From the human T2T-CHM13v2.0 reference genome, Homo sapiens: a DNA stretch of 64,000 bases. The notes beneath the pieces were generated by a model. It was not told the origin of the DNA. It made no database searches and saw only the letters and a program-made list of their open reading frames with translations. Shown here in pieces: positions 7,222 through 14,015 of the stretch (position 1 is the stretch's first letter; every line of letters starts with the position of its first letter). The translations under genes and the position numbers were made by a program. The stretch lies in assembly GCF_009914755.1 (NCBI RefSeq), contig NC_060937.1. One strand, 5' to 3'.

Positions 7222-8177
7222 GGGTCCATTCCAAGATGGCCGAATAGGAAGAGCTCTGGTCTGCAGCTCCCAGTGTGATTGACCCAGAAGATGAGTGATT
7301 TCTGCATTTCCAACTGAGGTACTGGTTAATCTCATTGGGACTGGTTGGACAGTAGGTGCAGCCCATGGAGGGCATGCCAAAGCAGGGCAGGGCATCGCCT
7401 CACCCAGGAAGTGCAAGGGATCAGGGGATTTCCCTTTCCTAGTCAAGGAAAGCCGTGACAGACTGTACCTGGAAAACTGGTACACTCCCGCCCAAATACT
7501 GCGCTTTTTCCACAGTCTTAGCAACTGGCAGACTAGGAGATTCTCTCATGTGCCTGGCTTAGTGGGTTCCAAGCCCATGGAGCCTTGCTCACTGCTAGCA
7601 TGGCAGTCTGAGATCCACCTGCAAGACTGCAACTGAGGAGGGGAAGGGGCATCCACTATTGCTGAGGCTTCAGTAGGTAAACAAAGTGGCCTGGAAGCTC
7701 GAACTGGGTGGAGCCCACTGCAGCTCAGCAAGGCCTACTCCCTCTATAGACTCCACCTCTGTGGGCAGGGCATAGCTAAACAAAAGGCAGCAAACAACTT
7801 CTGCAGACTTAAGTGTCCCTGTCTGACAGCTCTGAAGAGAGCAGTGGTTCTCCCAGCATGGCTTTTGAGCTCTGAGAACGAACAGACTGCCTCCTCAAGT
7901 GGGTCCCTGACCCCCATGTAGCCTAACTGGGAGACACCTCCCAGTAGGGACCAACAGACACCTCATATGTGTGGGTGCCCCTCTGGGACGAAGCTTCCAG
8001 AGGAAGAATCAGGCAGCAATATTTGCTGTTCTGTAATATTTGCTATTCTGCAGCCTCTGTTGGTGATACCCAAGCAAACAGCGTCTGGAGTGGACCTCCA
8101 GCAAACTTGAACAGACTTGCAGCTGAGGGACCTTACTGTTAGAAGGAAAACTAACAAACAGAAAGGAATAGCATCAA

Positions 8178-8582
8178 CTACGCAGGAATTGCAAATGCAA
8201 ACCCTTCACAGTCTTGCTCAGCTAAGGGGATAGTAAGGAAACAGTCTTTTAAATCTATGACTATTAAAGGCCAATTTTTCAGAATCATAGCAGGAGAAGG
8301 CAATCCTGGCAGTAATGCCCACATAGGTTGTATAACTGAATTAATGGCCCTTAAGTCAGTTAACATTCTCCATTTACCTGATTTTTTCTTGATTACAAAA
8401 ACTGGAGAATTCCAAGGGGAAAATGTTGGAGCTATGTGTCCTTTTTCTAATTGTTCAGTAACTAAGTCCTCTAAAGCCTCCAGTTTCTCTTTACTTAGTG
8501 GCCATTGTACTATCCAAATTGGCTTATCTCTTAACCATTTTAAAGATATAGGTTCTGGAGGCTTAACAATGGCTGCCATCAA
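8178..8582 (-). pseudogene. Betaretrovirus-like pol, RT N-terminal fragment
   Basis: ORF track peptide; truncated before the YMDD motif at the L1 junction. Confidence 0.9.
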
Positions 8583-9984
8583 AAATGATATCCTAAACCT
8601 TGGTGGGAACTTTGTCTTTCCGCTTGAAGTGGTTCCTTCAAAACTTGTAAATTTTTTCCTAGCCCCATACCAGGGACATACCCCATTTCATTCATCATAT
8701 GTTGACTTTGAGGGCTGTATAATTGCTCTGGAATTAGAACTTGTGCTCCTCATTGTTGTAATAAATCCCTTCCCCATAAATTTATAGGTACAGAAGTTAT
8801 ACTTGGTTGAATAGTCAAAGGTTGTTCATTGGGCCCTTCACAATGCAAAATATAACTAATTTGATATACTTCAGGGGCTTTACCAACTCCAACTATGTTA
8901 AATTGAGCAGGTTGAATTGGCCACGTGGACGGCCAGTGCTGTGGAGAAATAATTGAAACGTCCACTCCCGTTTCTACCAAACCTTTAAATTTCTTTCCCT
9001 GAATAGTTATTTCACAGGTAGGACGTTTATTAGTAATTTAATTCACCCAGTAAGCTGCTGTGCCTTGTTTATTTGTGCTTCAAAATCCTCCTGTTCATTT
9101 AGTTTCACTTTTCCCCATTTCCACATACAGCACAATCAGGAGCTGTGCTATGTGCTTTCTTGGCTCTGCTTTCCAGGGAACAGAAGTAGATATAACAATT
9201 TGAATTTCCCCATTGTAATCTGAATCAATGACTCCTGTATGTACTTGCACTCCTTTTGAATTTAAACTAGATCTACCTAGAAGTAATCCTACAGTTCCTG
9301 CTCGCAACATCTGACTAGAGATAGCAATATTCTTTAACAGTCCCATTACAAAAGGAGAACCTGGTCCATATTGATTAATAGCTTATTTAAATTCTTTGAG
9401 TAATTCAAAAGGAAAGGGCTCAAATGTAGCTACAATATTTCCCTGTTGATCTCGGGGTGCGGGGGCGGTAACCTAACAGGGAACTGCCAAGCCCCTATAT
9501 CACCCTCTCATCTAGCTTGCTGAATTCCTGCCTGAATAGAACTGAGAGCGGTCACTCAAGGCCCTGCTCGAAGAGTCACTGGGGCAACTACTTCTCACCT
9601 AGTGTCCTCAGGAAAAGAAAGATCTGGAGGGTCAGGCCACTCTTTTTCTTCAAAATAGTGAGGGGGTGCAGAAGGGTAGGGACAAACCTCTCCCTCCTTT
9701 GCCACTTTAGCTTTAGGTGGGAAAGAAACCTGCTCTGTCATATCTTCTGTTAATTCGTTATACTCTCCTTCCTCCTCATCATCAGTGTGAAAAGGTTCCA
9801 AGGTGGAATGAGCCAGAGCCCACACTTGTCCCATTATTACCTTGATGCTTCTGAGCTCCCCTTCTTACTCACCACAGGGATTGCTTGAGAATACTCAGGT
9901 GTCCTCCAGCTTAGTTCCATGTTCTCCAACCGTCACTCTGGTGACCCTTAAATACCGGTTCAAGCCCCATGTATGGGCACCCCT
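8179..9984 (-). mobile_element. HERV-K(HML-3)/HERVK9 internal fragment: PBS, partial gag, dUTPase-pro, RT N-terminus
   Basis: Gag MGQVWALAHSTLEPFH (9834); dUTPase GRSS, GVIDSDYNG; protease [53 protein letters not shown]. Confidence 0.93.
9964..9982 (-). promoter_or_regulatory. Degenerate tRNA-Lys primer binding site
   Basis: Minus strand ggtgcccatacatggggc just after the LTR end, resembling TGGCGCCCAACGTGGGGC. Confidence 0.75.
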
Positions 9985-11217: not shown

Positions 11218-12483
11218 GTGAAAAAATTCCTGGACACATACACTCTCCCAAGACTAAACCAGGAAAAGGTTGAATCTCTGAATAGACAAGTAACAGACTC
11301 TGAAATTGAGGCAATAATTAATAGCCTACCAACCAAAAAAAGGCCAGGACCAGACGGATTCACAGCCGAATTCTACCAGAGGTACAAAAAGGAGCTGGTA
11401 CCATTCCTTCTGAAACTATTCCAATCAATAGAAAAAGAGGGAATCCTCCCTAACTCATTTTATGAGGCCAGCGTCATCCTGATATCAAAGCCTGGCAGAG
11501 ACACAACAAAAAAAGATAATTTTAGACCAATATCCCTGATGAACATTGATGCAAAAATCCTCAATAAAATACTGGCAAATCAAATCCAGAAGCACATCAA
11601 AAAGCTTATCCACCATGATCAAGTTGGCTTCATCCCTGGGATGAAAGAGTGTTTCAACATACACAAATCAATAAATGTAATCCATCACATAAACAGAAGC
11701 AATGACAAAAACCACATGATTATGTCAATAGATGCAGAAAAGGCCTTCAAAAAAATTCAACAGCCCTTCATGTCAAAAACTCTCAATAAACTAGGTATTG
11801 ATGGAACATATCTCAAAATAATAAGAGCTGTTTATGACAAACCCACAGCCAATATCATACTGAATGGACAAAAACTGGAAGCATTCCCTTTGAAAACCAA
11901 GGGCACAAGACAAGGATGCCCTCTCTCACCACTCCTATTCAACATGGTGTTGGAAGTTCTGGCCAGGGCAATCAGGAAAGATAAACAAATAAGGGGTATT
12001 CAATTAGGAAAAGAGGAAGTCAAATTTTCCCTGCTTGCAGATGACATGATTGTACATTTAGAAAACCCCATCATCTCAGCCCCAAATCTCCTTAAGCTGA
12101 TAAGGAACTTCAGCAAAATTTCAGGATACAAAATCAATGTGCAAAAATTACAAGTATTCCTATACACCAATAACAGACAAACAGAGAGCCAAATCATGAG
12201 TGAACACCCATTCACAATTACTACAAAGAGAATAAAATACCTGGAAATCCAATTTACAAGGGACGTGAAGGACCTCTTCAAAGAGGACTACAAACCACTG
12301 CTCAATAAAATAAAAGAGGACACAAACAAATGGAAGAATATTCCATGCTCATGGGTAGGTAGAATCAATATCGTGAAAATGGTCATACTGCCCAAGGTAT
12401 TTTATAGATTCAATGCCCTCCCCATCAAGCTACCAATAACTTTCTTCAAGTTATTTAAAGTAGAATTGGAAAATCTACTTTAA
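11218..12483 (+). pseudogene. L1 ORF2 Z/RT domain, 421-codon open remnant
   Basis: [32 protein letters not shown]; surrounded by stops and frameshifts. Confidence 0.92.
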
Positions 12484-14015
12484 AGTTCATATGGAACAAA
12501 AAAAGAGCCTGCATAGCCAAGACAATCCTAAGCCAAAAGAACACAGCTGGAGGCATCACGCTACGTGACTTCAAACTATACTACAAGGCTACAGCAACCA
12601 AAACAGCATGGTACTTGTAGCAAAACAGATATATAGACCAATGGAACAGAACGGAGCCCTCAGAAATAATGCCAATCTACAACTATCTGATCTTGACAAA
12701 CCTGACAAAAACAAGAAATGGGGAAAGAATTTCTTATTTAATAAATGGTGCTGGGAAAACTGGCTAACCATATGTAGAAAGCTGAAACTGGATCCTTTCC
12801 TTACACCTTATACAAAAATTAATTCAAGATGGATTAAAGACTTAAATGTAAGACCTAAAACCATTAAAACCCTAGAAGAAAATCTGGGTAATACCATTCA
12901 GGACATAGGCATGGACAAAGACGTCATGACTAAAACACCAAAAGCAATGGCAACAAATGCCAAAATAGACAAATGAGATCTAATTAAACTAAAGAGCTTC
13001 TACACATGAAAAAAAGCTTACCATTAGAGTGAACAGGCGACCTACAGAATGGGAGAAAATTTTTGCAATCTACCCATCTGACAAAGGGCTAATATCCAGA
13101 ATCTACAAAGAACTTAAACAAATTTACAAGAAAAAACAACCCCATCAAAAAGTGGTTGAATGATATGAACAGACACTTCTCAAAAGAAGACATTTATGCA
13201 GCCAACAGACACATTGAAAAAATGCTCATCATCACTGGTCATCAGAGAAATGCAAATCAAAACCACAATGTGATACCATATCATGCCAGTTAGAATGACA
13301 ATCATTAAAAAGTCAGGAAACAACAGATGCTGTAGAGGATGTGGAGAAATAGGAACACTTTTACACTGCTGGTGGGAGTGTAAATTAGCTCAACCATTGT
13401 GGAAGACAGTGTGGCGATTCCTCAAGGATCTAGAACTAGAAATACCATTTGACCCAACAATTCCATTACTGGGTATATACCCAAAGGATTATAAATCATG
13501 CTACTATAAAGACACATGCACATATATGTTTATTGCAGCACTATTCACAATAGTAAAGACTTAGAACCAACCCAAATGTCCATCAGTGATAGACTGGATT
13601 AAGAAAATGTGGCACGTATACACCATGGAATACTATGCAGCCATAAAAAAGGATGAGTTCATGTCTGATGAGTTCATGTCCTTTGCAGGGACATGGATGA
13701 AGCTGGAAACCATCATTCTCAACAAACTATCACAATGACAGAAAACGAAGCACTGCATGTTCTCTCACTCATAGGTGGGAATTGAACAATGCGAACACTT
13801 GGACACAGGGCAGGGAACATCATATACTGGGTCTTGTTGGGGGGGTGGGGGGCTGGGGGAGGGATAGCATTAGGAGAACTACCTAATATAAATGACGAGT
13901 TAATGGGTGCAGCAAACCATCATGGCACATGTATACCTATGTAACAAACCTGTGCATTGTGCACATGTACCGTAGAACTTAAAGTATAATAATAATAATA
14001 ATACATTATTGCTAA

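What the first reader, a model, noticed from the sequence alone, without database searches (positions are those of the whole stretch)
7222..14000. L1PA/HERV-K(HML-3) chimera: ORF1 swapped for an antisense retroviral cassette inside a TSD-flanked L1
Seen: the L1 has both termini and one TSD pair. It stops near the end of the 5'UTR (...ggaatagcatcaac, 8178) and resumes inside the ORF2 endonuclease (ccaatacaggggcacccag, 10282). The 2.1 kb in between is antisense MER9/HERVK9, cut mid-LTR on one side and mid-RT on the other. Neither junction is an integrase end and no retroviral TSD is present. Established: proviral integration leaves full LTR ends and a TSD and does not delete target DNA. Inference: one of three origins - a double template switch by L1 RT, two later deletions, or a non-autonomous LINE-ERV hybrid that was retrotransposed as one unit and may form its own family. 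I cannot tell from this window whether such a hybrid is already catalogued.
Basis: partly seen in the sequence, partly recalled or inferred. Interest (0 to 1): 0.8.

Follow-up and report, generated by a model that had tools for sequence, protein, structure and literature searches.

The report
Broken retrovirus piece inside an L1
An old human L1 element has its middle replaced by a backwards fragment of an endogenous retrovirus, but this join occurs only once in the genome and is most likely ordinary repeat decay, not a new mobile family.

Summary
One L1 (7222-13999) carries both termini, an A-rich tail and a 16-nt target-site duplication (14/16 identical).

- **What is missing:** about 1.5 kb of the L1. 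This covers the last ~80 nt of the 5'UTR, all of ORF1 and roughly the first 116 codons of ORF2.
- **What replaces it:** 2,103 bp of antisense betaretroviral DNA (8179-10281). It holds the 3' ~296 bp of a 5' LTR, a PBS, a gag remnant, part of dUTPase, protease and the RT N-terminus.
- **Ends:** comparison with other proviruses shows both ends are internal truncations, not integrase ends.

The exciting reading, a mobilised L1-ERV hybrid family, is not supported. In the whole T2T genome both junctions are unique by 28-mers, 120-mers and 400-mers. The closest relatives of the ERV piece (at most 89% identical) are ordinary proviruses with no adjoining L1. No donor copy exists.

Terminal-branch divergences of the L1 (0.05-0.076) and the ERV piece (0.059) are similar.

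The most likely history is a provirus that integrated into the L1 and then lost both ends, with adjacent L1, to deletions joined by end-joining (0-3 nt microhomology). One-step capture of viral DNA at a break cannot be excluded, because no primate orthologues were available. Interest is low.

The parts
7206..7221 (+). Left target-site duplication of the L1 (AATACATTGTTGTTAA)
   Evidence: Read directly. It is 14/16 identical to 14000-14015.
7222..8178 (+). L1 5'UTR with a natural 5' end, lacking only about its last 80 nt
   Evidence: 39 non-self genome matches at 85-89% over ~950 bp, 38 starting at query 1-16 and one at 42; 6/6 L1 comparators identical up to 8178 and then continuing as L1. ORF1 ATG ~82 nt beyond the break in comparator L010.
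8179..8687 (-). ERV pol: N-terminal part of reverse transcriptase, cut off at 8179 (junction 1)
   Evidence: RVT_1 E 5.3e-11, profile positions 1-97 of 205; comparators continue as RT beyond this point.
8750..9037 (-). ERV retroviral aspartyl protease
   Evidence: RVP E 5.1e-24, profile positions 2-95 of 101.
9095..9382 (-). C-terminal part of dUTPase fused to a short capsid N-terminal remnant. This internal gag-pro deletion is shared with 11 other proviruses.
   Evidence: dUTPase E 3.8e-13 (profile 41-106 of 129); weak Gag_p24 match (E 0.0076) on residues 1-25. L018-L027 collinear as single HSPs.
9595..9864 (-). gag N-terminal remnant (open frame containing ...MGQ...; ATG about 9832-9834)
   Evidence: translation. 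No Pfam match. Homologous to the same region of other proviruses.
9957..9984 (-). Primer-binding-site-like stretch (resembles a tRNA-Lys PBS; that resemblance is recalled, not tested)
   Evidence: Read. Same stretch in provirus L018 at 1829-1854; the HERVK9 family is listed with a Lys PBS.
9986..10281 (-). 3' ~296 bp of the ERV 5' LTR. The first ~160 bp of the LTR are missing (junction 2 at 10281/10282).
   Evidence: the LTR in L018 starts with TG at 1341, 160 bp before the break-equivalent at 1501; homology among proviruses starts 147-167 bp upstream in 10/10.
10282..13738 (+). L1 ORF2 from about codon 117 (inside the endonuclease) to its stop. Degenerate, broken into many short frames.
   Evidence: Exo_endo_phos profile 129-207 of 225 (10230-10652); RVT_1 E 9e-39 (11170-12483); eleven separate frames; 88-90% to L1 comparators from 10279.
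13739..13999 (+). L1 3'UTR and degenerate A-rich tail
   Evidence: genome matches run to query end at 86-90%.
14000..14015 (+). Right target-site duplication (AATACATTATTGCTAA)

Best explanation
This is a single-locus, decayed nested repeat.

1. A full-length primate L1 inserted here by target-primed reverse transcription. This step is shown by both termini, the tail and the TSD.
2. A gag-deleted HERV-K-like (probably HML-3/HERVK9) provirus later integrated in antisense orientation somewhere in the 1.5 kb between the end of the 5'UTR and ORF2 codon ~117. This step is inferred.
3. Two deletions, repaired by end-joining, each removed one end of the provirus together with the adjoining L1 DNA. 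This step is also inferred.
   - On the left: about 3.8 kb of ERV (rest of pol, env, 3' LTR) plus some L1.
   - On the right: the first ~160 bp of the 5' LTR plus the remaining L1.

The result has no function and was never mobilised as a unit.
For: **The junctions are unique.**
- 28-mers across each junction, allowing up to 3 mismatches, give 1 match each (self) in 3.1 Gb and 0 for the reversed control.
- 120-mers: only self spans the junction, 1 of 40 scored of 925 candidates for junction 1 and 1 of 40 of 1181 for junction 2.
- 400-mers: only self spans, 1 of 40 of 2865 and 1 of 40 of 3566. The other 39 each cover only one half.

**The ERV piece behaves as an independent provirus.**
- Its best non-self match is 89%.
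- It is about equally distant from all 10 collinear relatives: mean distance 0.111, minimum 0.094.
- Its star-branch is 0.059, inside their range of 0.041-0.060. There is no donor or sibling copy.

**Relatives are ordinary proviruses.**
- They continue past both break points.
- None of 29 has the L1 5'UTR or ORF2 adjoining the ERV at the junction positions.

**Ages are compatible with L1 first, ERV next.**
- L1 star-branches: 0.076 (5'UTR), 0.070 (ORF2 5' part), 0.051 (3' 1.5 kb against closest copies).
- ERV star-branch: 0.059.
- Non-CpG values: 0.041-0.061 for L1 against 0.045 for ERV.
- Literature passages: HML-3 dated about 35 Mya (PMC5142424); L1Pa7-L1Pa3 30-10 Mya (PMC7449397).

**The junctions look like end-joining.** Junction 1 has 0-1 nt and junction 2 has 2-3 nt (CA/CAG) of microhomology.

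**The missing pieces are not nearby.** They do not appear elsewhere in the 64-kb window.
Against: - The model needs three events: one integration and two boundary-spanning kb-scale deletions. No intermediate was observed.
- No retroviral TSD or LTR end survives, so integrase-mediated entry is assumed, not shown.
- The dating does not resolve the order. Against its closest relatives the L1 3' part has a slightly shorter branch (0.051) than the ERV piece (0.059).
- If the L1 is L1PA6 or younger and HML-3 was active only about 35 Mya, the order would be wrong. The L1 subfamily could not be named with these tools.
- Orthologous primate loci could not be examined.
Confidence: 0.6

Rival explanations
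1. One-step, integrase-independent capture. A double-strand break in the resident L1 was resected or lost about 1.5 kb. It was then repaired by end-joining with a 2.1-kb fragment of unintegrated HML-3-like viral cDNA, or another extrachromosomal ERV DNA fragment, as filler.
For: - It needs one event instead of three.
- Both ERV ends are internal truncations with 0-3 nt microhomology, and target DNA is lost. From recall of the literature on DSB capture and integrase-defective retroviral vectors, this is what non-integrase insertion of retroviral or other DNA at breaks looks like. One search gave only a search listing, and no paper from it was read.
- The ERV piece is an independent lineage with no genomic donor. 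That fits capture of fresh viral DNA better than copying of a chromosomal provirus.
Against: - Germline capture of a 2-kb viral fragment is a rare event class.
- Nothing in the sequence distinguishes it from two deletions.
- Capture from chromosomal DNA is not supported, because no donor above 89% identity exists.
Confidence: 0.22
2. The hybrid was made elsewhere and retrotransposed here as one unit in trans (a non-autonomous L1-ERV element). Its source copy was later lost or never fixed.
For: - A single TSD and tail flank the whole composite, and the L1 5' end is complete.
- Ages of the L1 and ERV parts are similar.
Against: - No second copy of either junction exists in the T2T genome.
- No sibling appears among the best matches to the 2.1-kb piece.
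- The element lacks ORF1 and the N-terminal third of the endonuclease. By established knowledge (recalled), L1 cis-preference makes trans-mobilisation of such RNAs inefficient.
- The TSD is equally explained by the L1 alone.
Confidence: 0.06
3. A double template switch occurred during the original L1 insertion. L1 reverse transcriptase left L1 RNA inside the endonuclease region, copied 2.1 kb of an RNA containing the ERV in antisense, then returned to L1 RNA near the end of the 5'UTR.
For: - One TSD flanks the whole structure.
- The junctions have short or no microhomology.
- Template-switch chimeras of L1 are described in print (recalled; PMC4476161 seen in a search listing only).
Against: - Known template-switch chimeras are bipartite. 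They place the foreign RNA at the 5' end in the same orientation. Here the foreign part is internal and antisense, so an antisense ERV transcript and two precise switches would be needed.
- The ERV piece has no closer genomic source than 89%.
Confidence: 0.05

Closest known systems
Nested transposable-element insertions degraded by later deletions (ERV fragments inside older LINEs, as catalogued by genome-wide nested-TE studies; PMC2836564 seen in search listing and abstract only)
   Same: A younger or coeval LTR element sits inside an older L1. The host L1 keeps its own TSD, and the inserted element is truncated and non-functional.
   Different: Both proviral ends are missing here together with 1.5 kb of host L1. 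The usual hallmarks of integration (LTR ends, 4-6 bp duplication) cannot be seen.
L1 template-switch chimeric retrocopies (U6-L1 type; recalled, PMC4476161 in listing only)
   Same: L1 sequence is joined to unrelated sequence inside one TSD-flanked, tailed insertion.
   Different: Those are bipartite, with the foreign RNA at the 5' end in the same orientation, and they recur as a class. Here the foreign part is internal and antisense, flanked by L1 on both sides, and the junctions are unique.
Composite non-autonomous retrotransposon families such as SVA (recalled)
   Same: A retroviral-derived segment combined with other repeat modules, potentially moved by L1 proteins.
   Different: SVA has thousands of copies sharing junctions with different TSDs. 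This structure has exactly one copy.
HERV-K(HML-3)/HERVK9 with MER9 LTRs
   Same: - Betaretrovirus-type order gag - dUTPase/protease - RT.
- Lys-type PBS region and an LTR of about 486 bp in relative L018, against 508-510 bp and a Lys PBS listed for HERVK9.
- A short, gag-deleted body, consistent with the 6,033-bp representative.
- A large copy number.
   Different: No named reference sequence was available, so the assignment is circumstantial. The piece here is only 2.1 kb of the element.

Membership tests
Full-length L1 insertion by target-primed reverse transcription | Natural 5'UTR start, 3' A-rich tail and flanking target-site duplication | tested here: met
   start at 7222 coincides with the start of other copies; tail ends at 13999; TSD 14/16 identical.
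Full-length L1 insertion by target-primed reverse transcription | ORF1 and complete ORF2 (endonuclease plus reverse transcriptase) | tested here: not met
   about 1.5 kb is absent, covering ORF1 and roughly the first 116 ORF2 codons; the remaining ORF2 is broken into 11 frames, with partial EN and RT domains recognisable.
HERV-K(HML-3)/HERVK9-MER9 | Betaretroviral gene order with dUTPase upstream of protease, then RT | tested here: met
   dUTPase, RVP and RVT_1 in that order on the minus strand.
HERV-K(HML-3)/HERVK9-MER9 | Lys PBS and LTR of about 510 bp (Table in PMC1779541) | tested here: inconclusive
   relative L018 has an LTR of about 486 bp (TG start at 1341) followed by a stretch resembling a tRNA-Lys PBS. 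The tRNA sequence is recalled, not tested.
HERV-K(HML-3)/HERVK9-MER9 | Best match to the HERVK9-int / MER9 reference sequences rather than to other HML groups | not testable with these tools
   No Dfam, Repbase or RepeatMasker library was available.
Canonical integrase-mediated provirus | Complete LTR ends (TG...CA) and a short target duplication | tested here: not met
   the 5' LTR lacks its first ~160 bp; the other end stops inside RT; no flanking duplication is possible to score. This describes the present state only. The ancestral state is unknown.
Mobilised chimeric (L1-ERV) retrotransposon family | The same internal junctions at several loci with different TSDs | tested here: not met
   each junction is found once (self) in the T2T genome; 0 of 29 related ERV loci have the L1 5'UTR or ORF2 adjoining the ERV at the junction positions.
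L1 template-switch chimeric retrocopy | Foreign RNA copy at the 5' end, same orientation as the L1 3' part | tested here: not met
   the ERV part is antisense and internal, with L1 5'UTR upstream of it.

The most novel reading that the evidence does not exclude
The ERV fragment never was a provirus at this site. A 2.1-kb piece of unintegrated HML-3-like viral DNA was ligated into a germline double-strand break in the L1 in one step, replacing 1.5 kb. This would be a fossil of integrase-independent retroviral endogenisation. A bolder and less likely variant is that the hybrid was trans-mobilised once by L1 from a source that has since been lost.
Probability: 0.25. Interest if true: 0.35.

Novelty: already known. 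Interest (0 to 1): 0.12.

Why it matters
It matters little. The locus is intergenic and non-coding in every frame, and the structure is unique, so it does not define a new mobile element family.

Its modest value is as a worked example. A TSD-flanked 'chimera' with non-integrase junctions need not imply RNA recombination or a hybrid family. A whole-genome junction search settles that question quickly.

If orthologues showed a one-step origin, it would be a rare documented germline case of break-repair capture of retroviral DNA.

Tried and rejected
**Hybrid family: rejected.**
- Junction searches at three lengths found only self.
- I first thought that 11 loci matching query positions 1/6-2100 of the ERV piece meant shared boundaries.
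- Searches showed this was only the query ending. Those loci are proviruses that continue on both sides, and none has the L1 5'UTR or ORF2 adjoining the ERV at the junction positions.

**Copy of an existing genomic provirus (DNA capture or read-through transcript): no support.** No donor exists and the piece is equidistant from its relatives.

**Missing pieces moved nearby (inversion or transposition): rejected.** No other ERV or ORF1 homology occurs in the 64-kb window; the other hits are short Alu-length repeats and old L1.

**Two separate L1 insertions around an older ERV: rejected.**
- The TSD pairs the outer ends.
- The sequence after 14015 is not LTR.

**Relative dating of L1 and ERV by star-branch lengths: inconclusive**.

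**Tools and sources that gave nothing usable.**
- Literature searches turned up no description of an L1/HML-3 hybrid family among the titles and abstracts listed. This is not exhaustive, and Dfam was not consulted.
- PMC6500023 (passages) describes an engineered 'chimeric L1', not a natural family.
- Naming the L1 subfamily and the HML group against references was not possible with the tools available.
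Full report
**Observation**

The window holds one L1 from 7222 to 13999.
- Its first bases are a natural L1 5' end. Of 39 non-self genome matches to the 5'UTR, 38 begin at query position 1-16 and one at 42.
- It ends in a degenerate A-rich tail.
- It is flanked by AATACATTGTTGTTAA (7206-7221) and AATACATTATTGCTAA (14000-14015), 14 of 16 identical.

The L1 sequence stops at 8178. Six of six L1 comparators are identical up to ...AGCATCAAC and then continue as L1. 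In comparator L010 the ORF1 ATG lies about 82 nt further on.

L1 resumes at 10282 (CCAATACAGG...). Five of five L1 comparators match from there. Pfam places that frame at positions 129-207 of 225 of the endonuclease profile.

Bridging comparators show that 1,493-1,519 bp of L1 are absent. One comparator with its own indels gave 1,567-1,592 bp. The missing part is the end of the 5'UTR, all of ORF1, the spacer and about 116 codons of ORF2. Codon numbering relative to the catalytic residues is recalled, not tested.

**The insert**

The stretch 8179-10281 reads on the minus strand. In ERV order it contains:
- the last ~296 bp of a 5' LTR (10281-9986);
- a PBS-like stretch (about 9984-9957);
- a gag start and N-terminal remnant (9864-9595);
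- a short capsid N-terminal remnant fused directly to the C-terminal part of dUTPase (9382-9095);
- protease (9037-8750);
- the N-terminal ~97 of 205 profile positions of RT (8687-8178).

Relatives in the same genome show that both ends are truncations.
- In L018 the LTR starts with TG 160 bp before the break-equivalent.
- Homology among proviruses starts 147-167 bp upstream in 10 of 10.
- It runs on through the RT break-equivalent in 9 of 10. L028 has its own gap there.

**Family of the insert**

No named reference library was available. The circumstantial evidence fits HERVK9/HML-3.
- The gene order is betaretroviral.
- Relative L018 has an LTR of about 486 bp and a Lys-like PBS (the tRNA comparison is recalled).
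- The table in PMC1779541 lists HERVK9 with LTRs of 508-510 bp, a Lys PBS and an unusually short 6,033-bp representative (passages). The short length fits the gag-pro deletion seen here.
- HML3 is the most numerous HML group, with about 150 copies (PMC4724089, passages).

**Is it a family?**

No. The junction searches of the whole 3.1-Gb assembly gave the following.

| Query | Junction 1 | Junction 2 |
|---|---|---|
| 28-mer, up to 3 mismatches | 1 match (self), 0 for reversed control | 1 match (self), 0 for reversed control |
| 120-mer | self only, 1 of 40 scored of 925 candidates | self only, 1 of 40 scored of 1181 candidates |
| 400-mer | self only, 1 of 40 of 2865; others 29 L1 halves and 10 ERV halves | self only, 1 of 40 of 3566; others 36 L1 halves and 3 ERV halves |

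Only 40 candidates are scored per search, so a diverged sibling could in principle be missed by those searches.

The search with the whole 2,103-bp piece covers that gap, because a sibling would align over its full length and rank at the top.
- The best non-self hits are 11 collinear proviruses at 86-89%.
- About 29 further proviruses match in two pieces (40 of 1486 candidates scored).
- BLAST of 29 of these loci against window 6500-15000 found no locus with the L1 5'UTR or the L1 ORF2 region adjoining the ERV at the junction positions.
- A few loci have unrelated L1 fragments elsewhere in their flanks.

**Donor and dating**

The ERV piece is about equally distant from the 10 collinear relatives aligned. 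Its mean distance is 0.111, and its nearest is L018 at 0.094. There is no donor or sibling.

| Segment | Star-branch, all sites | Star-branch, non-CpG |
|---|---|---|
| ERV piece | 0.059 (relatives 0.041-0.060) | 0.045 |
| L1 5'UTR | 0.076 | 0.059 |
| L1 ORF2 5' part | 0.070 | 0.061 |
| L1 3' 1.5 kb, against its six closest copies | 0.051 | 0.041 |

The two components are therefore of similar age. The order 'L1 first' is compatible with the data but not proven.

Literature passages give about 35 Mya for HML-3 (PMC5142424) and 30-10 Mya for L1Pa7-L1Pa3 (PMC7449397). The L1 subfamily could not be named here.

**Junction anatomy**

- Junction 1 is blunt or has 1 nt of overlap.
- Junction 2 has 2-3 nt (CA or CAG) shared between the LTR and the L1.
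- Both are typical end-joining scars and neither is an integrase end.
- No other ERV or ORF1 homology lies in the 64-kb window.

**Interpretation**

| Reading | Confidence |
|---|---|
| Nested integration followed by two boundary-spanning deletions | about 0.6 |
| One-step capture of unintegrated viral DNA at a break in the L1 | about 0.22 |
| Retrotransposition of a pre-formed hybrid | about 0.06 |
| Double template switch | about 0.05 |

- Nested integration with later deletions is the best-supported reading.
- One-step capture explains the same scars with fewer events, but it belongs to a rarer event class.
- A pre-formed hybrid is disfavoured by the unique junctions and by the element's lack of ORF1 and part of the endonuclease.
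- A double template switch is disfavoured by the antisense, internal position of the ERV.
- Orthologous primate loci, which would decide among these, were not available.

**Verdict**

The interpretation that made it interesting is not supported. This is an ordinary kind of repeat decay at a single intergenic locus, and interest is low.

Noticed in passing
window 9095-9382 (minus strand); loci L018-L028 and L030-L046: The ERV family exists in at least two differently gag-deleted lineages, and each has multiple copies. This copy and 11 collinear proviruses join a capsid N-terminal remnant directly to mid-dUTPase. In L040, another lineage joins an earlier capsid point to the second NC zinc knuckle and keeps about 230 bp more. 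Other copies show spacings of ~354 and ~514 bp at the same place. No copy with a full gag was seen among those scored. This suggests repeated amplification of non-autonomous, trans-complemented proviruses.
   Followed up: partly
window 14138-14998 and 6426-7146: The L1 sits among older L1 fragments that are about 70-74% similar to L1 3' regions. Window 14138-14966 is homologous in reverse orientation to the L1's own 12935-13656, as seen through locus L021's flank.
   Followed up: no
window 8181-10817: NCBI's soft-masking leaves the whole ERV piece and the first ~540 bp of the resumed L1 ORF2 unmasked, although both are clearly repeats with tens to thousands of genomic relatives (hub annotation).
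   Followed up: no
window 8182-8378 and 10084-10281: Short stretches of the ERV piece have much closer relatives than the whole piece does. The RT part reaches 95% over ~197 bp (three loci) and the LTR part reaches 93% over ~198 bp (for RT; for LTR, two loci at 93% and a third at 92%). These were not fetched, so it is unknown whether they are solo LTRs or fragments, or whether they would shorten the ERV age estimate.
   Followed up: no
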